Position numbers and translations under genes: made by a program. The notes beneath the pieces are model-generated. The model did not search any database. It saw only the letters and a program-made list of their open reading frames with translations, and was not told the origin of the DNA. 64,000 bases of DNA, taken from NCBI RefSeq assembly GCF_028464065.1, contig NZ_CP116808.1, forward strand, positions 943,886 to 1,007,885, written 5' to 3'. This DNA is from Saprospira sp. CCB-QB6 (GTDB lineage: Bacteria; Bacteroidota; Bacteroidia; Chitinophagales; Saprospiraceae). Below, one piece after another: positions 25,639 to 35,840 of this stretch. Numbering within the stretch: position 1 is the first letter of the stretch; each line of letters begins with the position of its first letter.

Positions 25639-28600
25639 TTGCCGATGAAGCTAATAGAACAAAAGCGCCTGCATTTTAAGCAGGGGAATTCTGATAAAGT
25701 ATATGAAGTAGACCTTTGCGAATTAGAAGCAGGGGCCTTTCTAGTAAATTTCCGTTATGGAAAAACAGGCGGTCCCCTACGAGAGGGAAGCAAAACGCCT
25801 ACGCCTGTAGATGAAACCAAGGCCCGTAATCTGTACAATAAATTGCTACAGGATAAAATGAAAAAGGGCTATTTAGATGTCTCTGAAAAGAGTCAGGCTA
25901 AGCAAGTTGCAGCTATTGAGCCTCCAGATAAATCTCTAGAAGGAGAAAAAGCACAAGCGGCTTGGATACTATACCATTTGCAGCTCGCTCAACTAGATCC
26001 AGAGGCCCAAAAGGCCCGCAACTGGAAACTCTCTAGAGTTGCTTGGCGAGCGGCCAGCCTTAACATAAAAGCCGCTGGACCATATTGCTGGGCCCTTTTT
26101 GAGCAAAATCATCGAGGTAAATCGGTAAATGATTTAGAACTCTATAGTTTGCTTTGGGCTACAGCTCAACTTGATACAGAAATAGAGGATCTCAGCAACC
26201 TATTAACTTTTTGGAGAAGCAAGAAAAAAGCGCCTACAGCTAAAAAGCTAGCTCCTTTTGTTTATTGGGAATTAGCAAACGCGGCAGGACAGCAGGCTTT
26301 GCTCGAAGAAGAACTGCCCAAACTACCTGAACTTTGGCAAAAGGCTTTGGACCGTAAAGATATGGATGCCTTAGCCTATCAGTTGCGTAAAGCTAAGGGA
26401 GATAAAAGTATGGAGGAGGCTTTTGCCATGCTCTATTTATTGTCTCCAGCCATGCCTTATTGTCGCAAGGCGCTTTTGGAAGTCATTTGCGAAATGGAGT
26501 TTCGTCCCAATAGCTTCCGCCTCCTGCGTCGCCTCTTTAAAATGGCTACTTTCCGCAAAGATGCACAGTTCTGGGGCGCCTTGGCTTATCGCTTTGAAAA
26601 GGCGAGTCCCCAATATAAAATGCCCCGCCGCAGCAATCAATATGTTTGGGTAAGCTATAACCGCATGCGACCAAAAGATGAGTTGAAAAAAGAGGATAGT
26701 CGTTTGGCCTTCTCCAATTTGACCAAAAAGTATTTTAGTGACTACATGCGTAGAGAGCTAGATCAATTGGGCCAAAAAGGAAACATTGCCTATGTAGCTA
26801 TGGCCACTAGCATCCTTCTTCAATATGATGATCATCGTGATGGGCGCACAGACCGTAGAGAAAAAAGTTGGCGCTTTGACAATAATAAACAACGTTGGAT
26901 TGCAACGGTATACCATTACCCCAGCTATTCTAGAGAATTGATCTTCAACGAAATTCTCTATGCAAACAGTCAGCGATATCTGTACGCTCCAATGAAACAA
27001 GAATGGGTTTATGGAGATAATTATGATCCTGATCAGCCCTTACCCGCAGCACTTTCAGAAACTAAATATGCTGATCTTTGGCAACAAGAACCCAAAGCCT
27101 TTTTGCACCTAATGGCAGAGGCCAAAAGTCAAAAGGTATTGGAGTTTGCCCATACGGCATTTATGGCGCATCCCGAGGCCAAGAGCTTGCAAAATCGCTT
27201 GGGATTAGCTTACTGGAAACAGTTATTGAGCCGTACATATTTGCCTATACAGACCTGGGCCCTACAGAAAATTGTAGCCACTTATGAGCAATCGGGTAAA
27301 CCCACTTCCATTCTGCTTTACCTTTTGGACCATGATTATGCAAAAGCTAGAGAACAGGCTTTGGCTTGGCTCCAAGCCGATTTCTTCGATTATTTTGCCG
27401 ATCTAGACTTGGTCTATAACCTCTTGTTGCATGAACGCCAAGATTTAAGAGCTTGGGCGCAAGAGGCCCTAGGACGTATTGTAGAGGTATATGAACCCGC
27501 TAAACGTCAAGCGCTTTTAGGTCGCTTATTAGGTTTCTTGTTGCGCTCGGGCCAAGATCGCCAGATCTTGATGACAGAGGTGGAAACGCTACTAACAACT
27601 CACTTCAAGGCCGAATTAGAACAACTCAGCTTAGATTTAATCGGGAAGTTTTTACGCTTGCCTTTACCTCAGCAACAAGCTTTCGGTTTGCAGTTGCTTA
27701 AAGGCCATGCCGCAGAAGCAATGCAAATTCCCTTTGAAGATATTCAATACCTTTTTGGTAAAACAGCCGATTATTGGCAATATGGCCTAGAATTACTCCA
27801 AAATTCTTCAGAACAAAAGCTCTTGCAAGAAGGAGAATTTCTCTTGTCTCTGCTAGAACATAAGGAAGAAGATGTTCGCTTAGGCACTCGAGAGATTTTA
27901 GTCCCACTCTATGCCCAAAATCAAGCTTTTGCTGTAGATCAAATGCAACAACTCTTGCGCAGATTGATCCGCAAAGAAAAAATTGAGGGCTTGCATGCAC
28001 TTTTTGCCGATATGCTAACTACCGAGCTAGAAGGATGTTTAGTTGAAGTGGACCGGAAGTTTATTTTCCGCCTACTTAATGCAAAATATGCCCCTGCACA
28101 AGAATTAGCCGCCCTTTTAATTGATCGTTATATCCCTTATGACTCTTTGTCTGTGGCCAATACCGTTCGCTTAGCCAATCACGAAATTGTAGCTGTGCGC
28201 GAACTTGCCTGGAAAATGTTTAAGGAGCAAAAAGATCGTATGCGCTACGAAAGAGAAGAGGCTTTACGTCTACTAGATGTAGATTGGGCCGACTCTCGAC
28301 AGTTTGCCTTTACTTTCTTTGGCGAAGCTTATACCGCAGAAGATTGGAGCCCCAGCTTGATGGTGGGCATTTGCGATTCAGTGCGCGAAGATGTACAGCA
28401 GTTTGGTCGCCAACTCATCACTCGCTTCTTTGAGGAAGAAGATGGTCCCATGTATTTGGAGCAATTGAGTCAGCACCCCCGCCCAGAACTACAACTTTAT
28501 GCAACCAACTATCTGGAGCGTTTCGCTGCGGGACATCCTGAGCGGATTCTATCGCTACGCGATTATTTCTATACGGTTTTGGCCCAAGTAAATAAAGGCC

Positions 28601-28815
28601 GAATTGCCAAAGATCGCATCTGGAGCTTTTTAGCAAAAGAAGCTAAAGCCTCTTTTGAAGTAGCACAATTCCTCTCTGATTTAGCTACTTTTGTCTCGGC
28701 CACAGCAGCTATTGGCGATAAAGAACAGGCCGTTATTGTGCTACGCGATTTGCAGGACCAATACCCCTTGCTCGAACAGCCTATTGCGATTCACGATTAT
28801 CCCACTCAATCTTAG
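25639..28815 (+). CDS. WGR-domain protein with long alpha-helical C-terminal region (MolR/YehI-like, WGR + DUF4132-type architecture)
   Basis: The N-terminus NSDKVYEVDLCELEAGAFLVNFRYGKTGG...DETKARNLYNKLLQDKMKKGY matches the WGR fold, with YGKTG in place of WGRIG. It is followed by about 950 aa of helical repeats. Confidence 0.65.
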   Translation: MPMKLIEQKRLHFKQGNSDKVYEVDLCELEAGAFLVNFRYGKTGGPLREGSKTPTPVDETKARNLYNKLLQDKMKKGYLDVSEKSQAKQVAAIEPPDKSLEGEKAQAAWILYHLQLAQLDPEAQKARNWKLSRVAWRAASLNIKAAGPYCWALFEQNHRGKSVNDLELYSLLWATAQLDTEIEDLSNLLTFWRSKKKAPTAKKLAPFVYWELANAAGQQALLEEELPKLPELWQKALDRKDMDALAYQLRKAKGDKSMEEAFAMLYLLSPAMPYCRKALLEVICEMEFRPNSFRLLRRLFKMATFRKDAQFWGALAYRFEKASPQYKMPRRSNQYVWVSYNRMRPKDELKKEDSRLAFSNLTKKYFSDYMRRELDQLGQKGNIAYVAMATSILLQYDDHRDGRTDRREKSWRFDNNKQRWIATVYHYPSYSRELIFNEILYANSQRYLYAPMKQEWVYGDNYDPDQPLPAALSETKYADLWQQEPKAFLHLMAEAKSQKVLEFAHTAFMAHPEAKSLQNRLGLAYWKQLLSRTYLPIQTWALQKIVATYEQSGKPTSILLYLLDHDYAKAREQALAWLQADFFDYFADLDLVYNLLLHERQDLRAWAQEALGRIVEVYEPAKRQALLGRLLGFLLRSGQDRQILMTEVETLLTTHFKAELEQLSLDLIGKFLRLPLPQQQAFGLQLLKGHAAEAMQIPFEDIQYLFGKTADYWQYGLELLQNSSEQKLLQEGEFLLSLLEHKEEDVRLGTREILVPLYAQNQAFAVDQMQQLLRRLIRKEKIEGLHALFADMLTTELEGCLVEVDRKFIFRLLNAKYAPAQELAALLIDRYIPYDSLSVANTVRLANHEIVAVRELAWKMFKEQKDRMRYEREEALRLLDVDWADSRQFAFTFFGEAYTAEDWSPSLMVGICDSVREDVQQFGRQLITRFFEEEDGPMYLEQLSQHPRPELQLYATNYLERFAAGHPERILSLRDYFYTVLAQVNKGRIAKDRIWSFLAKEAKASFEVAQFLSDLATFVSATAAIGDKEQAVIVLRDLQDQYPLLEQPIAIHDYPTQS

Positions 28816-28826
28816 TCTAGCTCAAT

Positions 28827-30494
28827 ATGTTATTTAATTATAAGTATGGAGGAACTTCCTCCGTGAAAAATAAAGCTGGGCAAACGGCGATGTCTTTTGC
28901 CCCTGATAGTTTGCGCGAGCCTACTTTTTTTGTGGGCCAATTGCACAAGAAAATTGCCTTTAGAGAAGCTATCTCTGCCTTGAATGCTGTAGTAGTTTCT
29001 GATCTTCGCTTCAAACCTCGCGATAAATCCGCCTATTTGGCCTGGGCCAAAGAACAAGAAGAGGTTTGGCTAGCCCAATACCTCGGCGAAATTGCTGGAG
29101 ATGAAGCCAATATCAAAAAACGAATCGAAGATATTTCTGTGGAATTAGCAGGGGTAGAAGAGCAGGAACGAGGCGTAATGCAGCATTTCTACAAAAAACA
29201 AAGAGAGTATTTTAATTACCTCTATAAAAAGGATTTTGATGCTTGGATCGTCCTGGATCCCGTTATCACTACCCATCCCGATAGCATTTTCTTTGAGTGC
29301 TTTAGCCAAGATGAATCTACTTATGGTAAGCTCAGCTGTGGCTACAATGTCTTTAAGAATATTGACGAGTTTTCTTGCGGAACAACCAATATTGACTACT
29401 CCGCAGCCCTCTATAATGAGTTTCAAAAGATTCGAAACTATAAGGAAACCGATTTTCGAGTAGATCCTTCTGGCTTCGAAATCCAAACAGAAGACCAAGA
29501 TTTATATAAAGAGGTCAAAATTGACCTGCCCGAAAGCTGGGTCCGCGGCTTCCTTCAAGTGAGCTCCGCCATGACGATGCCCCTCATTCGCTTTGACCTG
29601 CATCCCATGGATATTCATAGCATCTGCCAGCTTTTGCGCCGCTTCAAAGAAACACATGGCCCCCGCTCTTTGCGCTTTCAACTTCGCCCTGGGCAGCCCG
29701 TTAAGGTGGTGGTAGAACCTTGGAATAAAGAAATTATCTGCCGCCGCTCTATTTATCATGGGCCAAAAGCAGAGGAGGTCCGCATTTGGGGCCGCCGCCG
29801 CTTACTCATTTTAGAGCGCCTGATTCCACAAGCCAAAAAATTTACAGTCAGCTTCCTCGGTTCTGGTTTGCCTTCTTTCTATGAGGCCCAACTAGAGGGA
29901 GATATGGTCTTTACTTTGGGCCTTTCTGGCTGGACCGATAACGATTGGTCCAGAGCTGGTAACTTTGATCTGCTCGCCCCTCGCTTAGAGGTAGACGATT
30001 GGACCAAACAAACCGTTTTCGAGGCACTCAAAACCACTTATTTCGAGTCGGTAGATAGCCTCGCAGAACGCCTGGAATTAGGCACAGATATCGTCAGCGC
30101 AGCCTTGCAAGCCTATACGCAAGCAGGCCGAGTGATCTTTGATCCTACCCTGGGCGTTTACCGCCTCAGAGAATTGCATCGCGAACCTCTCGATATGAAA
30201 CTGCTCCGCTTTGCTTCACCGCAAGAGGAAAAAGCCAACAAAATTTTGGACAAAAACCGCCTCAGCAATTTATCCGCAGAGGCACAGCAAAATGGCCAAA
30301 CTCGACTGTCCGCACAAATTAAAGGAGAGCAACGCAACTACCAATGCCAACTCCTTATCGATGCCGATGACCGCATGGTCCAAGCCGAATGCAATTGCAA
30401 TCATTTTCAAATGAATAAATTGCGCAAAGGCCCCTGCGAACACATCTTAGCCACTCGTATGGCCCATAATCGCAAAACAGGAAAACTGATCTAG
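28827..30494 (+). CDS. SWIM zinc-finger protein (YehQ-like)
   Basis: The C-terminus is CNCNHFQMNKLRKGPCEHIL, which is CxCx(n)CxH (SWIM) at nt 30390-30443. It starts 12 nt after the WGR gene, so the two form an operon. Confidence 0.7.
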   Translation: MLFNYKYGGTSSVKNKAGQTAMSFAPDSLREPTFFVGQLHKKIAFREAISALNAVVVSDLRFKPRDKSAYLAWAKEQEEVWLAQYLGEIAGDEANIKKRIEDISVELAGVEEQERGVMQHFYKKQREYFNYLYKKDFDAWIVLDPVITTHPDSIFFECFSQDESTYGKLSCGYNVFKNIDEFSCGTTNIDYSAALYNEFQKIRNYKETDFRVDPSGFEIQTEDQDLYKEVKIDLPESWVRGFLQVSSAMTMPLIRFDLHPMDIHSICQLLRRFKETHGPRSLRFQLRPGQPVKVVVEPWNKEIICRRSIYHGPKAEEVRIWGRRRLLILERLIPQAKKFTVSFLGSGLPSFYEAQLEGDMVFTLGLSGWTDNDWSRAGNFDLLAPRLEVDDWTKQTVFEALKTTYFESVDSLAERLELGTDIVSAALQAYTQAGRVIFDPTLGVYRLRELHREPLDMKLLRFASPQEEKANKILDKNRLSNLSAEAQQNGQTRLSAQIKGEQRNYQCQLLIDADDRMVQAECNCNHFQMNKLRKGPCEHILATRMAHNRKTGKLI

Positions 30495-30497
30495 CGA

Positions 30498-30645
30498 TTT
30501 TTTTGGGGCCTCCGCAGCAAAGCTGCGGCGCTACGTTTCGGGGCTCGCTGCTCGCTCGGCCCTTCGGCGGCTTTGCCGCCTCGGTCTGGCCTGCGGCCAC
30601 CCCTCCACATCGCTAGGCCTGCGGCGGCTTCGCCGCCTGTCTACC
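30498..30645. repeat. REP/MITE-like element (forward, type 2) separating SWIM gene from RT module
   Basis: It starts TTTTTTGGGGCCTCCGCAGCAAAGCTGCGGCGCTACG and ends CCACATCGCTAGGCCTGCGG. Confidence 0.75.
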
Positions 30646-30704
30646 GCAAAAAGGGCCAAAGCTTCACTATTTTGATAATTTTTTGAAAAAATTTAAATAA
30701 AAAC

Positions 30705-30733
30705 TTGACAAGCTGCTAAAGAATATCTATAAT
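30705..30733 (+). promoter_or_regulatory. perfect sigma70-like promoter (TTGACA-17bp-TATAAT)
   Basis: TTGACA at 30705-30710 and TATAAT at 30728-30733 are exactly 17 bp apart, upstream of the structured region and the RT gene. Confidence 0.5.
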
Positions 30734-30739
30734 TGTAAC

Positions 30740-31110
30740 AGACAAATGGGGATGGCAAGCATCTCTATATAGATATTGAAAAGAAGGATCAAGAGAAGAC
30801 AAAGTCTTGCAAAAAGAGCGCTGTTTCGGCGTTCAAGCGATATTACTCTTCACTGCTCACTAAGGAAGAATCTTTATGATGCGAACCGTCGTAGGTGCCC
30901 CTACTATGCGCCCTATTCGGTTTCGAGTCGTAGACTCTATAGGGCGCATAGTAGGGGCACCTACGACGGTTCGCTGGAGTTGATTCTCTTAGTTCTATGA
31001 TTGTACGAAGTAAATCTTCTCTCCTTCTTTTTTCTTTTGCAGCTACTTTCAATTTTGGACCAACTGGGCTTCTGCCTTAGTTCTCCCAAATTGAAAGTAG
31101 TTTTTTTTTG
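30740..31110 (+). ncRNA. candidate retron-type non-coding RNA (msr/msd-like) upstream of RT
   Basis: A perfect 36-bp inverted repeat (30881-30916 / 30939-30974) carries an inner 5-bp palindrome in its 22-nt loop. A second 13-bp perfect stem (31043-31055 / 31088-31100) is followed by T9, immediately 5' of the RT start. No credible ORF is present. Confidence 0.45.
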
Positions 31111-31126: not shown

Positions 31127-32698
31127 ATGTCTGATCATCGAATGACCCGTCAACAGATTTATGACCGTATCCGTCAAACGTCTAAAGAGGAATACATTTT
31201 AGAAGAAATGAAACGCCTTGGCTTTTGGGATACTTCCGAAGAAGCTCCAAAAATATCTGAGGAGCTGATCCAAAAGAAAGGAGCCCTCCGCAGAGAGCTC
31301 CGCGAGCTGATGGAGAAGCAACGCATGTTTCGAGATAAAGAACGCATGCTAGCCGAAATGCGCAAAAAACGCATGGCCGATGCTCTCGCCCGTAGAGAAG
31401 AGACCAAGGAACGCCGTAAGGCGGAAAAAGAAGCCCGTGCTAAAGCTTGGCAAGAAAAGAAAGAACGAAGCATTGTCTTTTTAGGTAAGGATTATTCTGC
31501 TGGCTTGAGTGAAGAAGAAGCTGACCTAGAAAAATTAGCCGCTTTAAATCTCCCTGCATTTAAGGATATTAAGGAGCTGGCAGATGCTATGGAGATTTCT
31601 GTAGGGCGTTTGCGCTACCTTTGCTTTCAACGAAAGCTGTCTACAGTATCGCATTATGAACGCTTTTATTTAGCCAAGAAAACAGGGGGCAAACGTCTGA
31701 TTTCAGCCCCTCGTCCAATGCTTAAAACTGCACAATATTGGCTACTAGAAAATGTACTTTCTCGCTTGGAGATGCATGAAGCCGCCCATGGTTTTGTGCC
31801 GCAGCGCTCTATTGTGAGTAATGCTAAATTGCATGAGAAAAAAGAGGTCGTCATCAATATGGACCTCAAAGACTTTTTTCCTACCGTAACCTACCCTCGA
31901 GTGAAGGGGATGTTTAAGGGCTTGGGCTATTCTGAGCAACAGGCAATTATTTTTGCGCTATTGACCACAGAACCTGAGGTGGACCAAGTAGAAATAGATG
32001 GGCAATTGTATTATGCCCAAAAAGGAGAACGCTATTTACCACAGGGCGCCCCCACTAGTCCCGCAATCACGAACTGGCTTTGCCGCCGCATGGACCGCCG
32101 TTTTGAAGGTGTAGCGAAAAAACTAGGTTGGACCTATAGCCGCTATGCCGATGACCTAAGCTTCTCTGCTCAGGATACGAGCAATATTAGCCGCATTATT
32201 TGGCAGGCACAGCAGATTATCCAAGATGAAGGCTTTGTGATTCACCCCAAAAAGCTCAAAATTATGCGCAAAGGCCGCCGCCAAGAGGTAACTGGCCTTA
32301 CCGTAAATGAGCAAGTAGCCGTAGATCGCAAAAGCTTGAAGAAGTTTAGAGCCTGTTTGCATACCATAGACACTAAAGGCTATCAAGCAGCGGAATGGGG
32401 CCAAGGCTTTATTTTGGCCAGCATTAAGGGCTTTGCGAATTATGTTCGTATGGTCCAAGCCGATAAAGGCCAAGCCCTTTGCGAACAAGTAAATCGCATT
32501 TTGGCCAAAGAAGAAAATAAGCAAGCTTGGAAGGCCTATTTTGCTCAGTCTAGCACTAAGAAATATGCTTATAAAGAGCAAAAGCAACAAGTTACAGCAG
32601 AAGATACAGCTACTTTGGGTAGTTCTGGCTTAGCAGAATCTCTTCATCCCATCGACCCACAACAAAAGGATGAGGAGCAATGGTGGAGCCTTTGGTAG
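31127..32698 (+). CDS. retron-type reverse transcriptase with basic coiled-coil N-terminal extension
   Basis: It has RLISAP (motif 1), HGFVPQRSIVSNAKLH (the retron NAxxH, nt 31820-31834), INMDLKDFFPTV, SRYADDLSFS (YADD, nt 32144-32155) and RRQEVTGLTVN (retron VTG, nt 32288-32296). The N-terminal roughly 120 aa are K/R/E-rich. Confidence 0.8.
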   Translation: MSDHRMTRQQIYDRIRQTSKEEYILEEMKRLGFWDTSEEAPKISEELIQKKGALRRELRELMEKQRMFRDKERMLAEMRKKRMADALARREETKERRKAEKEARAKAWQEKKERSIVFLGKDYSAGLSEEEADLEKLAALNLPAFKDIKELADAMEISVGRLRYLCFQRKLSTVSHYERFYLAKKTGGKRLISAPRPMLKTAQYWLLENVLSRLEMHEAAHGFVPQRSIVSNAKLHEKKEVVINMDLKDFFPTVTYPRVKGMFKGLGYSEQQAIIFALLTTEPEVDQVEIDGQLYYAQKGERYLPQGAPTSPAITNWLCRRMDRRFEGVAKKLGWTYSRYADDLSFSAQDTSNISRIIWQAQQIIQDEGFVIHPKKLKIMRKGRRQEVTGLTVNEQVAVDRKSLKKFRACLHTIDTKGYQAAEWGQGFILASIKGFANYVRMVQADKGQALCEQVNRILAKEENKQAWKAYFAQSSTKKYAYKEQKQQVTAEDTATLGSSGLAESLHPIDPQQKDEEQWWSLW

Positions 32699-32745: not shown

Positions 32746-32756
32746 TGGACCAAAAG

Positions 32757-32900: not shown

Positions 32901-35840
32901 CTAGCTAAAGTGATTTTGTTTTTTGCGCCAATAAAAACCCAAAGCCAACAGCAAGAGAAGAAGGGTTCCTATACCCCAGATATAGATAGACCAGTTTGTT
33001 TTTTGGGGTAAATCAACAGCTTGGCTGTCTCCGCTGAGGACCCAGGCGGCCCAGAAAAAGGGTTGGGCAGCTACTTCCTTTTGATCAACTAATTCTAAGT
33101 AGCGGACTTGAGCATTTTGTAGGGCCTTATCTTTAGTTTGGCCCGCCTCTAAATTAGAATAAAAGAGCTCCATCAATAAGCGACTACTTTCATCATTGAC
33201 CTCCCAAAGCGTGCTGAGCGTGCTGGCGGCACCAGCATAACGGAAACCAAGGCCAAGACTTTGCGCCCCTTCTCCAGCTTGGTAACGGCCAGCAGCGGTT
33301 TGGCAGGCAGAAAGCACCACTAAATCAGCAGATAAATTTAGACCAGGGAGTTCATAAGCCAATAATAAATCATCGAGTAGACTATCTTGGGTTTCGCTAA
33401 AGAAGAGAGCCGAATAGCTAGGGGCCATAGGGTCTGTGATGGCGTGCATGGCCAAGTGAATAAAGCGGGCATGGGGAGCTAATTCTCTAAACTGCTGTTC
33501 GTTGGCAGCCCCACTGCGCAGAAACTGTCCCTTAAAGTATTTTTCCAGATAATTGAGTTCGGCCTCAGCTCCAGCCAAGGGCTGAAGTTGTTTGCGAGCT
33601 TGGGTCCAATCTAAGGCTTGACGATCCACTGCAGTTCCATGGCCTTCATAAGTTGGCGCCATAGCTAAAAAACCTTGAGCTTGTCGTTTTGGGCTATTTT
33701 GCAGATAGAAATTGGCGGCATAGAGGTAACTTATTGCGTACTGCTTGATGAGGTAATTTAGGCGGCTAAAAGCTTCTTCTTCAGGACTTATAAGCAGGCT
33801 ACTAAAAGCCAGCTGGGCCAATTCTGCATGAGGAGAAATGAGTAAATCATGCTTAGGCGCTTGGGGCATAAGTTGCTGATAAAGAGCATGAGCAGCTTGG
33901 ATAAAGTCCATTTTGAACTGTTTACTTTCTTCTTTTGGCCGTTGCAGGAGTCGCTGAAATTTTTGCAGTTTTTTACGTAGTGGTTGAGTGGTTCCTAGGC
34001 TAAATAATTGAATTTCGCCTGCTTCTAAAAGAAAGCAATAGCTATTTTTTGGGCCCATAAAATAAGCCAATAGACTTTGTTGATTTTGAGCTAATTTCTC
34101 CTGCAAAGCGGCTAAATCCAATTCCTCTAATTCTTCTTGCCAGCTACTATAACTGGGATATTTCTGAGCCAATTGAGCGAGCAAATCTTCCAAGGCTTGG
34201 CGTTTTTGGAAAAGAATTGCTTGCATTTTTTGTGCTCGCAAGCTATCTGATTTGCGTTCTGCACGGCTAAATTGCGCTTGATAATAGCTAATATCTTGGC
34301 GCAGGCTACGCTCTTCGGCCAAAAGCTCCGCCGAGATATTGCCTAATTGCTGGGCCTCTTTATTGCGCAAAGAACTGAGCAACCAACTGCCCTTAGCCAG
34401 CTCAATTTCGATAAAAGCTTGCTGAATATAAATGGGGTCGGCCTCCGCTTTTTCCAGAGCAATTGCGGTTTCTAGAAAAGACTCATAAATTTTTTCAGTT
34501 TGTTCTCTTAAAGCTGCTTTCCCCCCTTTAGAGCCCAATTGCTTTTCTAATTCCTTGGCCAAGCTAATTGCCGTTTGGCAACTTTTATATTGCTCTAGCA
34601 AAGGGGCATTGATTTGTTTTTGCGCTCGATAAATTCCCCATAAAATAGCCAAACCTTCTTGGCCTTTCAGCTGGCTAAGTCCTTCTTGTTGCCCCAAGCC
34701 CGCCGTTTGGTAGCGAAGAGCCTCATCAAAATAACGAAGCGCCAAGGCTGCCGTATCTAATGCCAAGGCGGCCTCTCCCAAAGCAATATAAATTTCTTGA
34801 TTTTTGGCGAGCTCTCGAAAGGCAGATTTTCGTCTTCGAGCATCTGCTAAAGAAGCCGCTAAGTCTTGAATACCCTCAAGATCCTTATTCTTTTTTAGCT
34901 TGTGGATATAGGCTTTAAACAAAGGAAATTGAGCGTGTCCGCCTCGATTTATTTCCTCTGTTAAAGGTAATTTAAAAGCATTTTGATCCAACAAGGATAA
35001 ATAGGCATTGGTCTCTAAAGCATAAAAACTTTTGGTCATCCCTAAGTCCTCAAATTGCTTTGCAGCCTCTAGCAAGTAAGGTAAGGCCTGTTTTTCTTGC
35101 CCCAATTTATAATAACAAATACCTCTACTCGCCAAGTTTTTTGCTCGAACATGAGGAAAAACTTTCTCCCCTTCCAAGGCGGCCAAAGCCTCTAAAGTAC
35201 GCTCATAATTTCCCTTCTGGCGATAGATTTGTGCCATGAGCAAATAGGCCATTGTTTTCGCATGAGGCTGTTGGAGTAAAGCCAATTTTTTGGCCCACTT
35301 TAAAGCTGTTTCTGGTTCATTGGCTAAGCCAAAATGAAAACTAGCCCCCTCTCTATATAAATCTAGCTTCAACAACTCATGATAGTTCTCCTCATTCTTT
35401 TCTAACCAAAGTAAAGCTTTGTCTAAGCGCTCCTTTTGTGCTGGCAGTTCAAGGTTTTCTAAATACCCTAAGTAATGATAGGCTAAATAATAATAAGGCA
35501 AGCGCTCTGCTGCTTGTTCTTCGGCCCAACTAAGTTGATCCTGAACCAAGGCTGTTAATTCTTCTACATAAGGCCTTTTATAAGCGCCCAAATAAGCATA
35601 AGCTAAGCCCACTAGCGCCAAATCACCCGCCTCTTGGTACTTACTCAATCGCCAAGATGAATCTACAGCTTGATTATAAGTAAAACTAGCTTCATAGTAG
35701 CGCATCATGAGCTGCTTTTGCACTCCTATCTTGGTAGTTTGAGCCAAACTGTCTTGATAAATGGCCCAATTAAGAGCTGATTGGGCAAAGAGGGGCAGGC
35801 AAAAGAATAACCCGCAAAGGCTATAGATATAGTTTCGCAT
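32901..35840 (-). CDS. TPR-repeat CHAT-domain protein (caspase-like protease), signal peptide and C-terminal TM anchor
   Basis: The C-terminal CHAT motifs are HLAMHAI (His) and VVLSACQTAAG (Cys). The N-terminal half has TPR repeats. The signal peptide is MRNYIYSLCGLFFCLPLFAQ. The C-terminal TM is IYIWGIGTLLLLLLALGFYW. Confidence 0.75.
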   Translation of the reverse strand: MRNYIYSLCGLFFCLPLFAQSALNWAIYQDSLAQTTKIGVQKQLMMRYYEASFTYNQAVDSSWRLSKYQEAGDLALVGLAYAYLGAYKRPYVEELTALVQDQLSWAEEQAAERLPYYYLAYHYLGYLENLELPAQKERLDKALLWLEKNEENYHELLKLDLYREGASFHFGLANEPETALKWAKKLALLQQPHAKTMAYLLMAQIYRQKGNYERTLEALAALEGEKVFPHVRAKNLASRGICYYKLGQEKQALPYLLEAAKQFEDLGMTKSFYALETNAYLSLLDQNAFKLPLTEEINRGGHAQFPLFKAYIHKLKKNKDLEGIQDLAASLADARRRKSAFRELAKNQEIYIALGEAALALDTAALALRYFDEALRYQTAGLGQQEGLSQLKGQEGLAILWGIYRAQKQINAPLLEQYKSCQTAISLAKELEKQLGSKGGKAALREQTEKIYESFLETAIALEKAEADPIYIQQAFIEIELAKGSWLLSSLRNKEAQQLGNISAELLAEERSLRQDISYYQAQFSRAERKSDSLRAQKMQAILFQKRQALEDLLAQLAQKYPSYSSWQEELEELDLAALQEKLAQNQQSLLAYFMGPKNSYCFLLEAGEIQLFSLGTTQPLRKKLQKFQRLLQRPKEESKQFKMDFIQAAHALYQQLMPQAPKHDLLISPHAELAQLAFSSLLISPEEEAFSRLNYLIKQYAISYLYAANFYLQNSPKRQAQGFLAMAPTYEGHGTAVDRQALDWTQARKQLQPLAGAEAELNYLEKYFKGQFLRSGAANEQQFRELAPHARFIHLAMHAITDPMAPSYSALFFSETQDSLLDDLLLAYELPGLNLSADLVVLSACQTAAGRYQAGEGAQSLGLGFRYAGAASTLSTLWEVNDESSRLLMELFYSNLEAGQTKDKALQNAQVRYLELVDQKEVAAQPFFWAAWVLSGDSQAVDLPQKTNWSIYIWGIGTLLLLLLALGFYWRKKQNHFS

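What the first reader, a model, noticed from the sequence alone, without database searches (positions are those of the whole stretch)
30881..30974. Perfect 36-bp inverted repeat (94-nt hairpin) upstream of the RT - msd-like stem
The repeat arms are:
- left arm: GCGAACCGTCGTAGGTGCCCCTACTATGCGCCCTAT (30881-30916);
- right arm, its exact reverse complement: 30939-30974.

They are separated by a 22-nt loop that itself contains a 5-bp palindrome (GAGTC-GTA-GACTC, 30925-30937). No T run follows, so it is not a terminator.

It sits about 150 nt downstream of a strong promoter and about 150 nt upstream of a retron-type RT start. That is the position and form expected for a retron msd stem-loop, which is the template reverse-transcribed into msDNA. 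The preceding roughly 140 nt (30740-30880) would then be msr.

A possible a1/a2 pair is AGAGAAGA (about 30793-30800) and TCTTCTCT (about 31013-31020). This is weak, only 8 bp.

The perfection of the stem is itself unusual, because most characterised msd stems carry mismatches. It suggests recent origin or strong selection.
Basis: seen in the sequence. Interest (0 to 1): 0.75.

Follow-up and report, generated by a model that had tools for sequence, protein, structure and literature searches.

The report
Retron type XIII msd template hairpin
The perfect 36-bp hairpin is real and is very probably the DNA-template (msd) stem of the non-coding RNA of a complete type XIII retron in a Saprospira grandis-like genome, which makes it a well-supported new member of a known class rather than a new kind of element.

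Summary
Arms 30881-30916 and 30939-30974 form a perfect 36-bp inverted repeat around a 22-nt apex.

It lies inside a ~290-nt structured non-coding RNA, between a 12/12 consensus promoter and a reverse transcriptase gene that scores as retron RT_XIII (E 3.8e-188). The RT is preceded by the two type XIII accessory genes, WGR/HEAT-ARM and SWIM.

The same RNA architecture recurs upstream of RT homologues only 40-55% identical, in several phyla: a1, TTGC, 8-bp msr hairpin, TCAC, basal stem, long stem, CGGT plus mini-hairpin apex, GAGTTGA, CGAAG, a2. Covariation is strong (91% of cells paired against 29-47% in slid controls).

Three Saprospira alleles differ at 10 stem positions. Every change is mirrored on the other arm, while the rest of the RNA is 97-99% identical.

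G·U wobbles are common in the msr hairpin (14.6%) but almost absent from the helices of the predicted msd region (0.1-0.7%). That is expected if those helices must pair both as RNA and as cDNA.

Perfect stems are the rule in this family (40 of 56), so perfection reflects selection and not recent origin. The 74-aa ORF is not conserved as coding sequence.

Verdict: new member of a known kind, moderate interest. msDNA itself was not demonstrated.

The parts
25639..28815 (+). Type XIII accessory gene: WGR-like domain plus HEAT/ARM repeat protein (1058 aa)
   Evidence: PADLOC WGR_XIII E = 0 (1019 bits) and HEAT-ARM_XIII 2.9e-25; Pfam WGR 2.2e-05
28827..30494 (+). Type XIII accessory gene: SWIM zinc-finger protein (555 aa)
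   Evidence: PADLOC SWIM_XIII 1.8e-232; Pfam SWIM 1e-05
30705..30733 (+). Promoter-like site TTGACA-17-TATAAT for the ncRNA
   Evidence: 12 of 12 consensus matches. Conserved in L001 and L081 except for one base in the -10 box. Function is inferred.
30746..30768 (+). 5' leader hairpin (9 bp) upstream of a1
   Evidence: Single-sequence MFE only; not tested for covariation
30778..30799 (+). a1, the 5' arm of the terminal ncRNA duplex
   Evidence: Pairs 30778-30788/31022-31032 (11 bp) and 30793-30799/31015-31021 (7 bp). An a1/a2 duplex with z < -3 is found in 28 of 32 related loci. The window's z is only -2.0 because the arms are purine and pyrimidine tracts.
30806..30810 (+). CTTGC motif; G30809 is the candidate 2'-OH priming (branch) guanosine
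   Evidence: TTGC is invariant in 25 of 25 aligned loci. It sits at the inner end of a1/a2, opposite G31007 if CTT pairs with AAG 31008-31010. The priming role is inferred, not tested.
30816..30834 (+). msr hairpin (8 bp, loop TTT), predicted to remain RNA only
   Evidence: 99% of cells paired and 6 of 8 pairs with changes on both sides. G·U pairs are tolerated at 14.6%.
30857..31007 (+). Predicted msd (reverse-transcribed) region, about 150 nt; the boundaries are inferred
   Evidence: All helices inside it use almost only Watson-Crick pairs (G·U 0.1-0.7%), against 14.6% in the msr hairpin. It is flanked by the conserved TCAC (30857-30860) and ACGAAG (31005-31010) motifs. Its complement folds as DNA at -56.7 kcal/mol, z = -15.4.
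30859..30872 (+). Basal msd stem, 5' side; pairs with 30982-30993
   Evidence: 6 + 6 bp in the MFE. The family helix has 8 of 9 pairs with changes on both sides and 91.8% of cells paired.
30881..30916 (+). Long stem, 5' arm (the finding). It contains the CTA box, CCTACT at 30901-30906.
   Evidence: Perfect 36-bp inverted repeat. Ten positions vary among three alleles and all are mirrored on the other arm. CTA[CGT] occurs in 27 of 34 independent arms against 7.1 +/- 2.3 expected.
30917..30938 (+). Apex: conserved CGGT (30918-30921) plus mini-hairpin GAGTC/GACTC (30925-30929/30933-30937)
   Evidence: The C and first G of CGGT are invariant and the T nearly so. In the mini-hairpin 5 of 5 pairs show changes on both sides and 91.1% of cells are paired. 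Only 1 change across the three Saprospira alleles.
30939..30974 (+). Long stem, 3' arm
   Evidence: Exact reverse complement of 30881-30916
30976..30983 (+). Conserved GGAGTTGA motif at the 3' foot of the long stem
   Evidence: GAGTTGA is invariant in 25 of 25 loci
30982..30993 (+). Basal msd stem, 3' side
31005..31010 (+). Conserved ACGAAG motif next to a2; predicted start of templating
   Evidence: G and the first A of CGAAG are invariant and the other positions at least 90% conserved. The templating role is inferred from the general retron mechanism.
31015..31032 (+). a2, the 3' arm of the terminal duplex
31041..31109 (+). Terminator-like long hairpin followed by T9, between the ncRNA and the RT start codon
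   Evidence: 17-nt inverted repeat 31043-31059/31084-31100, 94% complementary. The MFE stem is 31041-31055/31088-31102 and is followed by a T run. The simple terminator scan missed it because its loop is longer than 8 nt. Function is inferred.
31127..32698 (+). Retron reverse transcriptase, type XIII (523 aa), with an N-terminal extension of about 130 aa
   Evidence: PADLOC RT_XIII 3.8e-188 over residues 2-492; Pfam RVT_1 4.4e-24. The motifs NAKLH (NAxxH), YADD and VTG are present.

Best explanation
The hairpin is the long msd stem of the msr-msd non-coding RNA of a type XIII retron. The cassette is WGR/HEAT-ARM, SWIM, ncRNA and RT, in a Saprospira grandis-like chromosome.

Proposed mechanism. 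Steps 1 and 2 are shown by sequence and comparative evidence. Steps 3 to 5 are inferred from the established retron mechanism.

(1) A strong promoter (30705-30733) drives a ~290-370-nt RNA. The RNA ends at, or partly reads through, a terminator-like hairpin (31041-31109) into the RT gene.

(2) The RNA folds as follows. a1 (30778-30799) pairs with a2 (31015-31032). Inside that duplex lie an invariant TTGC, one 8-bp msr hairpin, a basal stem, and the 36-bp stem capped by a conserved CGGT bulge and a 5-bp mini-hairpin.

(3) The RT binds this fold. It uses the 2'-OH of the conserved G (candidate G30809) at the inner end of a1/a2 as primer.

(4) It copies the RNA from about 31006 leftwards to about 30857. 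This gives a branched msDNA of roughly 150 nt whose DNA part re-forms the same 36-bp hairpin. For comparison, Mx162 of the same retron type makes a 162-nt msDNA.

(5) The msDNA-RT complex presumably works together with the SWIM and WGR/HEAT proteins, as in other tripartite retrons. The role of those proteins is unknown.

The stem must pair both in the RNA template and in the complementary DNA product, so only Watson-Crick pairs are allowed. This explains why the stem is perfect, why changes are always mirrored on both arms, and why G·U pairs are excluded.
For: Gene context:
- RT_XIII 3.8e-188, WGR_XIII E = 0 and SWIM_XIII 1.8e-232, all on one strand.
- The retron RT motifs NAxxH, YADD and VTG are present.
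- Type XIII is defined by exactly this gene set and includes Mx162, Mx65, Sa163 and Ne144 (PMC7736814).

Position:
- The hairpin lies between a 12/12 promoter and the RT.

Family conservation:
- A covariance model of the core finds one hit in the window (30805-31011, 123.8 bits, E 6.5e-31).
- It gives 68 matches at E <= 0.01, nearly all on the RT strand and most just upstream of the RT in the related loci.

Covariation:
- 33 of 38 RNAalifold pairs keep pairing through changes on both sides.
- 91.4% of cells are paired against 29-47% when partners are slid. The covariation score is 0.664 against 0.07-0.17.

Micro-evolution:
- Window against S. grandis DSM 2844: 6 of 6 stem changes are compensated, while the rest of the ncRNA is 97-99% identical and the flanking genes 86-94%.
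- A third allele from a metagenome is again a perfect 36 bp. There are 19 pairwise pair-changes and none is uncompensated, transversions included.
- Other close pairs show the same pattern.

DNA-level constraint:
- G·U fraction is 14.6% in the msr hairpin, 0.6% in the basal stem, 0.1% in the long stem (1 of 994) and 0.7% in the mini-hairpin.

a1/a2:
- 18 bp in the window; z < -3 in 28 of 32 loci.

The predicted cDNA folds as a stable DNA hairpin.
Against: - No msDNA, RNA or any other experimental data exist for this locus. Reverse transcription, the priming G and the msd boundaries are all inferred.
- The putative priming context is TTGC. The characterised retrons have TAGC, CAGC, GAGC, CAGA or ACGC (PMC6868368).
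- The local geometry around G30809 is ambiguous. Either CTT pairs with AAG with two opposed Gs, or TGCAA pairs with TTGTA as in the MFE.
- No Rfam family matches. The only hits are generic long-hairpin miRNA models below their gathering scores.
- I could not compare the RNA directly with the Mx162 ncRNA or with the published type XIII covariance models.
- The window's own a1/a2 duplex is not significant against shuffles (z = -2.0) because of its composition.
- Most of the G·U signal in the msr hairpin comes from one conserved U·G pair. Without it the fraction is about 4%, which is still far above 0.1%.
Confidence: 0.88

Rival explanations
1. The hairpin is an RNA-only element of the RT leader, for example an RT-binding platform or a regulatory or attenuator structure. 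It is never copied into DNA.
For: There is no direct evidence of msDNA here. The RNA sits in the 5' region of the RT transcript and is followed by a terminator-like hairpin, which could suggest regulation.
Against: RNA-only helices normally tolerate G·U pairs, as the msr hairpin of this same RNA does (14.6%). The long stem, basal stem and mini-hairpin almost never do (0.1-0.7%). The RT and accessory genes belong to the retron type that contains the classical msDNA producers Mx162, Mx65 and Sa163. The overall a1/msr/msd/a2 layout matches retrons.
Confidence: 0.06
2. The region is translated: the 74-aa ORF 30776-31000 (TTG start) encodes a small protein and the palindrome is incidental.
For: An ORF of 74 codons exists.
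Against: Between the window and L001 the frame has 9 nonsynonymous against 3 synonymous codon differences, and it loses its stop codon. The adjacent RT has 30 nonsynonymous against 141 synonymous. Nucleotide conservation follows base pairing and invariant RNA motifs, not codons.
Confidence: 0.01
3. It is a DNA-level palindrome: a cruciform or recombination site, the end of a mobile element, a dispersed repeat, or a bidirectional terminator.
For: A perfect palindrome reads the same on both strands. The genome does carry dispersed GC-rich repeats, one of them 250 nt upstream.
Against: The conserved flanking motifs (TTGC, TCAC, TCTTTA, GAGTTGA, CGAAG) are asymmetric. The model gives a single hit in the window, on the RT strand, and the hits in the related loci are nearly all on the RT strand too. 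No T run follows the hairpin. The neighbours are ordinary chromosomal genes with no mobile-element markers. The GC-rich repeat is a separate element.
Confidence: 0.02
4. It is the template RNA of a non-retron defence RT (DRT2- or DRT9-like) that makes concatemeric or homopolymeric cDNA rather than a branched msDNA.
For: Those systems also place a structured ncRNA upstream of a retron-related RT (own knowledge, not tested here).
Against: The 25 best PADLOC hits shown, of 60 families matched, are all retron RT models, with RT_XIII far ahead at 624 bits against 311 for the next. The type XIII accessory genes are present. The RNA has the retron a1/a2 clamp and a conserved G at its inner end.
Confidence: 0.02

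Closest known systems
Retron-Mxa1 (Mx162) and its relatives Retron-Sau1 (Sa163), Retron-Mxa2 (Mx65) and Retron-Nex2 (Ne144): type XIII, RT clade 10 of Mestre et al. 2020
   Same: - Same retron type by RT profile and by the SWIM plus WGR/HEAT-ARM accessory genes.
- The RT has an N-terminal extension (PMC6868368).
- The ncRNA is upstream of the RT with a long a1/a2 duplex, a short msr hairpin and one long msd hairpin.
- The a1-to-a2 unit is about 255 nt (30778-31032) against 241 nt for the Mx162 primary transcript, and the predicted msDNA is about 150 nt against 162 nt.
- The context is chromosomal and looks vertically inherited.
   Different: - The host is Bacteroidota (Saprospira), not Myxococcota.
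- The putative priming context is TTGC instead of CAGC or GAGC.
- A direct sequence or structure comparison with the Mx162 ncRNA was not possible, because no myxobacterial locus was retrieved.
- msDNA has been shown for Mx162 but not here.
Retron-Eco1 (Ec86) and other E. coli retrons: the generic retron msr-msd architecture
   Same: The general plan is shared: an a1/a2 clamp, a priming G at its inner end, msr hairpin(s) and an msd hairpin that reappears in the msDNA (PMC7736814 and PMC6868368).
   Different: - According to the review, msd stems generally carry mismatches or wobble pairs. In this family 40 of 56 stems are perfect and G·U pairs are essentially absent.
- The accessory proteins are different.
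- The RT here is longer because of its N-terminal extension.
Engineered retron ncRNA/msd arrays ('multitrons', PMC10370050)
   Same: Some natural relatives of this locus carry 2-4 tandem msr-msd units with different stems in front of one RT. This resembles the engineered arrays.
   Different: The window itself has a single unit. In the searches I ran I found no description of natural arrays.

Membership tests
Retron (general) | RT with the retron-specific motifs NAxxH and VTG, plus the YADD catalytic box | tested here: met
   NAKLH, RYADDLSF and EVTGLTV are all present in the translation. All 25 best PADLOC hits shown are retron RT models.
Retron (general) | Structured ncRNA next to the RT on the same strand, with terminal inverted repeats a1/a2 | tested here: met
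   11 + 7 bp a1/a2 in the window. z < -3 in 28 of 32 related loci, although the window's own z is only -2.0 because of its composition.
Retron (general) | Conserved priming guanosine at the inner end of a1 | tested here: inconclusive
   An invariant TTGC (G30809) is in the right place, but its context differs from the known TAGC, CAGC and GAGC. The local pairing is ambiguous. Branching cannot be tested in silico.
Retron (general) | One to three short msr hairpins | tested here: met
   An 8-bp hairpin at 30816-30834; 99% of cells paired and 6 of 8 pairs with changes on both sides.
Retron (general) | Long msd hairpin (10-50 bp) conserved in structure but not in sequence | tested here: met
   36 bp here and 7-36 bp across 56 copies. 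Changes are compensatory at every scale examined.
Retron (general) | Production of branched msDNA with a 2'-5' linkage | not testable with these tools
   Only indirect support: the Watson-Crick-only rule in the msd helices.
Retron type XIII (Mestre et al. 2020) | RT of clade 10 | tested here: met
   PADLOC RT_XIII 3.8e-188, 624 bits, over residues 2-492. The next model scores 311 bits.
Retron type XIII (Mestre et al. 2020) | Adjacent SWIM zinc-finger protein (cluster 114) | tested here: met
   SWIM_XIII 1.8e-232; Pfam SWIM. The gene ends 633 nt before the RT start, with the ncRNA in between.
Retron type XIII (Mestre et al. 2020) | WGR-like plus HEAT/ARM repeat protein (cluster 216) upstream of the SWIM gene | tested here: met
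   WGR_XIII E = 0 and HEAT-ARM_XIII 2.9e-25; Pfam WGR.
Retron type XIII (Mestre et al. 2020) | ncRNA of the type XIII structural class | tested here: inconclusive
   The published covariance models and supplementary tables were not available. Rfam 15 has no matching family. The architecture is shared by most of the retrieved RT_XIII-like loci.
Intrinsic (Rho-independent) terminator | GC-rich hairpin followed directly by a T run | tested here: not met
   The right arm is followed by TGGAGTTGATTC, not a T run. The scan lists no terminator there.
Rfam miRNA precursors (mir-3912, mir-3116, mir-8338) | Score at or above the family's gathering threshold | tested here: not met
   51.7 against 95, 42.2 against 65 and 39.4 against 80 bits. 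These are generic long-hairpin matches, two of them on both strands.

The most novel reading that the evidence does not exclude
The stem of the type XIII msDNA may be more than a structural rod. It may be a specificity-bearing sensor surface.

It combines an invariant core, including a strand-specific CTA box, with short variable patches (arm positions 7-10 and 26-30 in Saprospira). In some relatives, 2-4 tandem ncRNAs with different stems feed one RT, which would amount to a natural 'multitron' repertoire.

Under this reading, different stems would be recognised by, or act as bait for, different phage factors. The strict perfection of the palindrome might be maintained in single steps by hairpin-templated (quasi-palindrome template-switch) correction rather than by pairs of independent mutations.

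My data do not exclude this, but they do not require it either. Stem divergence is not above the neutral rate, and internal dyad symmetry is only weakly enriched.
Probability: 0.12. Interest if true: 0.7.

Novelty: new member of a known kind. Interest (0 to 1): 0.35.

Why it matters
Type XIII is the retron type of the first msDNAs ever found (Mx162 and relatives) and is among the most widespread. Even so, I found no mechanistic study of its SWIM and WGR/HEAT partners in the searchable literature, and Rfam has no model of its ncRNA.

This locus is cleanly delimited and compact, and it comes from a cultivable bacterium. The analysis provides:
- exact coordinates for every RNA element;
- a family-wide covariance model;
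- a simple sequence signature, Watson-Crick-only helices, that separates the reverse-transcribed part from the RNA-only part without experiments.

That signature could help annotate msd boundaries in other uncharacterised retrons and choose scaffolds for retron-based editing. The finding itself does not change what is known about retrons.

Tried and rejected
(1) Rfam search at a permissive threshold. It gave only sub-threshold miRNA-type hairpin matches and weak noise, and no retron family.

(2) The stem as a hypervariable element. In some lineages the stem differs much more than the rest of the ncRNA; L038 against L039, for example, has 6 of 14 pairs changed against 1 of 158 nt. However, third-codon divergence of the adjacent RT genes is 17-60% in the same pairs. 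The stem therefore changes at about the neutral rate or below it, and it is the flanks that are unusually conserved. I dropped the hypervariability claim.

(3) Internal dyad-symmetric 'restriction-site-like' sequences inside each arm. Enrichment is weak: the summed best inverted repeat is 109 against 95 +/- 4.9, z = 2.8. For the window's arm P = 0.12. This is not used as evidence.

(4) The 74-aa ORF. Rejected.

(5) The GC-rich repeats at 30500-30650 as part of the retron. They are a dispersed genomic repeat with 7 copies in the window and are poorly conserved between strains (86.9% identity). They are not part of the ncRNA.

(6) Literature searches for experimental work on type XIII function, and for natural tandem ncRNA arrays. 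Nothing relevant was found. The supplementary tables of Mestre et al. are not held, so I could not check whether this Saprospira locus is already listed there.

It is described from the fold instead.

Full report
OBSERVATION

The sequence at 30881-30974 is as described. The two 36-nt arms (30881-30916 and 30939-30974) are 100% complementary and are separated by 22 nt. The loop contains GAGTC-GTA-GACTC at 30925-30937, and no T run follows the right arm. Chance cannot produce a perfect 36-bp inverted repeat in 64 kb (inference). The surrounding 371 nt fold far better than shuffles: -170.4 against -94.9 +/- 5.7 kcal/mol, z = -13.3.

GENE CONTEXT

The ORF downstream begins at ATG 31127, not 31128, and encodes a 523-aa reverse transcriptase. 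It hits the PADLOC model RT_XIII at E = 3.8e-188 over residues 2-492. The next best model scores half as much. The protein carries the retron motifs NAKLH (NAxxH), YADD and VTG.

The two genes upstream on the same strand hit WGR_XIII (E = 0, with HEAT-ARM_XIII) and SWIM_XIII (1.8e-232). Pfam confirms the WGR and SWIM domains. This is the gene set that defines type XIII retrons in Mestre et al. 2020. That type contains the classical myxobacterial retrons Mx162, Mx65, Sa163 and Ne144 and has its own ncRNA class (PMC7736814).

The hairpin lies in the 633-nt gap between the SWIM gene and the RT. It is 148 nt downstream of a 12/12 TTGACA-17-TATAAT promoter match. The genes further out are ordinary chromosomal genes such as FBPase, a flavoprotein and an M23 peptidase.

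RELATED LOCI

A scan of one genome per species returned 80 loci that encode relatives of the RT. The closest is Saprospira grandis DSM 2844 at 94% amino-acid identity. The rest are 33-56% identical and come from Bacteroidota, Gammaproteobacteria, Verrucomicrobiota, Cyanobacteria, Planctomycetota and other groups.

Most of these loci carry a long, near-perfect hairpin 75-250 nt upstream of the RT. Folding the regions one by one showed the same layout in each. The layout is:
- a long terminal duplex (a1/a2);
- CTTGC;
- an 8-bp hairpin;
- TCAC;
- a basal stem that includes TCTTTA;
- the long stem;
- an apex made of CGGT plus a 5-6 bp mini-hairpin;
- GAGTTGA;
- ACGAAG;
- a2.

In a 25-sequence alignment TTGC, GAGTTGA and the central TCTT of the TCTTTA motif are invariant, and most positions of TCAC and CGAAG are invariant or at least 90% conserved.

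COVARIATION

RNAalifold predicts 38 pairs, and 33 of them keep pairing through changes on both sides.

A covariance model of the core (R1, 185 positions) finds exactly one hit in the 64-kb window: 30805-31011, plus strand, 123.8 bits, E 6.5e-31. It gives 68 matches at E <= 0.01 in total, nearly all on the RT strand and most just upstream of the RT in the related loci.

On the resulting alignment 91.4% of cells form standard pairs, against 29-47% when the 3' partners are slid by 1-3 columns. The covariation score is 0.664 against 0.07-0.17. No shuffle out of 500 reaches the observed values. The msr hairpin, the basal stem, the base of the long stem and the apical mini-hairpin each show changes on both sides in most of their pairs.

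a1/a2 complementarity is significant (z < -3) in 28 of 32 loci. In the window it is 11 + 7 bp. It scores only z = -2.0 because a purine tract faces a pyrimidine tract, so shuffled versions also pair.

MICRO-EVOLUTION OF THIS STEM

Against S. grandis DSM 2844 the cassette is 86-94% identical at the nucleotide level, and third-codon positions differ by 17-30%. The ncRNA outside the arms is 97-99% identical. The arms are 83% identical, with six positions changed on each arm. These form six exactly mirrored pairs: 30887/30968, 30889/30966, 30907/30948, 30909/30946, 30910/30945 and 30916/30939.

A metagenome scan with the conserved apex as probe gave a third allele, L081. It is again a perfect 36-bp palindrome. 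Among the three alleles ten arm positions vary (7, 9, 10, 26-30 and 36). That gives 19 pairwise pair-changes. All are compensated, including transversions such as G-C to C-G and A-T to T-A that have no wobble intermediate.

Other closely related pairs of loci show the same pattern. Almost all stem changes are compensated, and the non-stem ncRNA is much more conserved than the stem.

Stem divergence per site does not exceed the third-codon divergence of the neighbouring RT genes. The right description is therefore that stem sequence is largely free, pairing is strictly constrained, and the flanks are constrained in sequence. The stem is not hypervariable.

A DNA-LEVEL SIGNATURE

G·U pairs make up 14.6% of paired cells in the msr hairpin (74 of 507). 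In the three helices of the predicted msd region they are far rarer:
- basal stem: 0.6%;
- long stem: 0.1% (1 of 994 pairs in 49 distinct stems);
- apical mini-hairpin: 0.7%.

Much of the msr figure comes from one conserved U·G pair. Without it the fraction is still about 4%.

This contrast supports reverse transcription of the stem. It places the msr/msd boundary between 30834 and about 30857. The complement of 30856-31006 folds as DNA into the same hairpin at -56.7 kcal/mol, z = -15.4.

By analogy with Mx162, which has a 241-nt primary transcript and a 162-nt msDNA (PMC6868368), I predict an msDNA of about 150 nt. This is an inference.

IS PERFECTION UNUSUAL?

A review states that msd stems generally contain mismatches or wobble pairs. 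It also states that mismatch-containing msDNAs titrate MutS when overexpressed, whereas fully complementary ones do not (PMC6868368).

In this family 40 of 56 stems are perfectly Watson-Crick, and the others have one or a few mismatches. Perfection is therefore a family trait. The window and its two close relatives simply have the longest stems, at 36 bp against a typical 12-27 bp. Three diverged but perfect alleles argue against recent origin and for selection.

RIVALS

The 74-aa ORF (30776-31000) shows 9 nonsynonymous against 3 synonymous codon differences between the window and DSM 2844, and it loses its stop codon. The RT has 30 against 141. The ORF is not coding.

A terminator is excluded because there is no T run. 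A purely DNA-level palindrome is unlikely because the conserved flanks are asymmetric and the model gives a single, RT-strand hit in the window, with nearly all other hits on the RT strand as well. The Rfam hits to miRNA precursors are below their gathering scores and reflect only the shape of a long hairpin.

WHAT REMAINS INFERRED

The following are deduced from the general retron mechanism and from conservation:
- that msDNA is produced at all;
- the identity of the priming G (candidate G30809 in the invariant TTGC, a context that differs from the TAGC, CAGC and GAGC of characterised retrons);
- the exact msd ends;
- the role of the terminator-like hairpin at 31041-31109;
- any function of the SWIM and WGR/HEAT proteins.

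I found no experimental study of type XIII function in the searchable literature. I could not access the supplementary tables or models of Mestre et al. to check whether this locus or this ncRNA class is already listed.

VERDICT

The element is a new, well-delimited member of a known kind (retron type XIII). Interest is moderate: a retron specialist would not be surprised. The family-wide RNA model, the Watson-Crick-only signature, the CTA box and the natural tandem arrays in relatives are useful leads.

Noticed in passing
L028:95-1197; L030:5066-5857; L032:5065-5858; L034:2264-3055; L002:3342-3818: Several related type XIII loci carry 2-4 tandem copies of the whole msr-msd unit between the SWIM gene and a single RT. 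The conserved cores are 51-96% identical between copies, but most copies have a different long stem, each perfectly paired. I found no description of natural retron ncRNA arrays in the searches I ran; only engineered 'multitrons' turned up. The window itself has one copy.
   Followed up: partly
window 30901-30906 (CCTACT) and the 5' arms of the stems in the related loci: Inside the otherwise free stem there is a strand-specific conserved box CTA[C/G/T]. It is present in 27 of 34 independent 5' arms against 7.1 +/- 2.3 in shuffles, usually 8-16 nt below the apex. In the three Saprospira alleles it lies in the invariant core GTAGGTGCCCCTACT. It may be a recognition element for the RT or an accessory protein.
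   Followed up: partly
window 31041-31109: A long AT-rich hairpin followed by T9 sits between a2 and the RT start codon and is conserved in the two close relatives. Similar strong hairpins follow a2 in L017 and L068. It looks like a terminator or attenuator that would make the ncRNA much more abundant than the RT mRNA. The simple terminator scan missed it.
   Followed up: partly
window 30500-30650; also 20722, 37506, 41043, 58488, 61727: A GC-rich repeated element with the core GCCTGCGGCGGCTTTGCCGCC lies between the SWIM stop codon and the retron promoter. It recurs 7 times in the window on both strands against 0 expected. It is a dispersed intergenic repeat of this AT-rich genome, diverges faster than the ncRNA (86.9% identity between strains), and is not part of the retron RNA.
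   Followed up: partly
window 32901-35840 (minus strand): A 979-aa CHAT-domain (caspase-like protease) protein is encoded convergently just after the RT (Pfam CHAT 3.6e-48, no PADLOC hit). Nucleotide similarity with S. grandis DSM 2844 stops at 32756, just past the RT stop codon, so the region downstream of the retron differs between strains.
   Followed up: no
window 30705-30733: The ncRNA promoter is a perfect 12/12 match to the enterobacterial sigma-70 consensus TTGACA-17-TATAAT. This is unexpected for a Bacteroidota genome, where a different promoter consensus is usual (own knowledge). DSM 2844 and L081 have TATCAT in the -10 box.
   Followed up: no
L057:10593-10765; L059:13100-13284: In two MAG loci (Vulcanimicrobiota and Synergistia) the ncRNA model hits several kb downstream of the RT match instead of just upstream. 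This suggests a different gene order in those type XIII-like systems.
   Followed up: no
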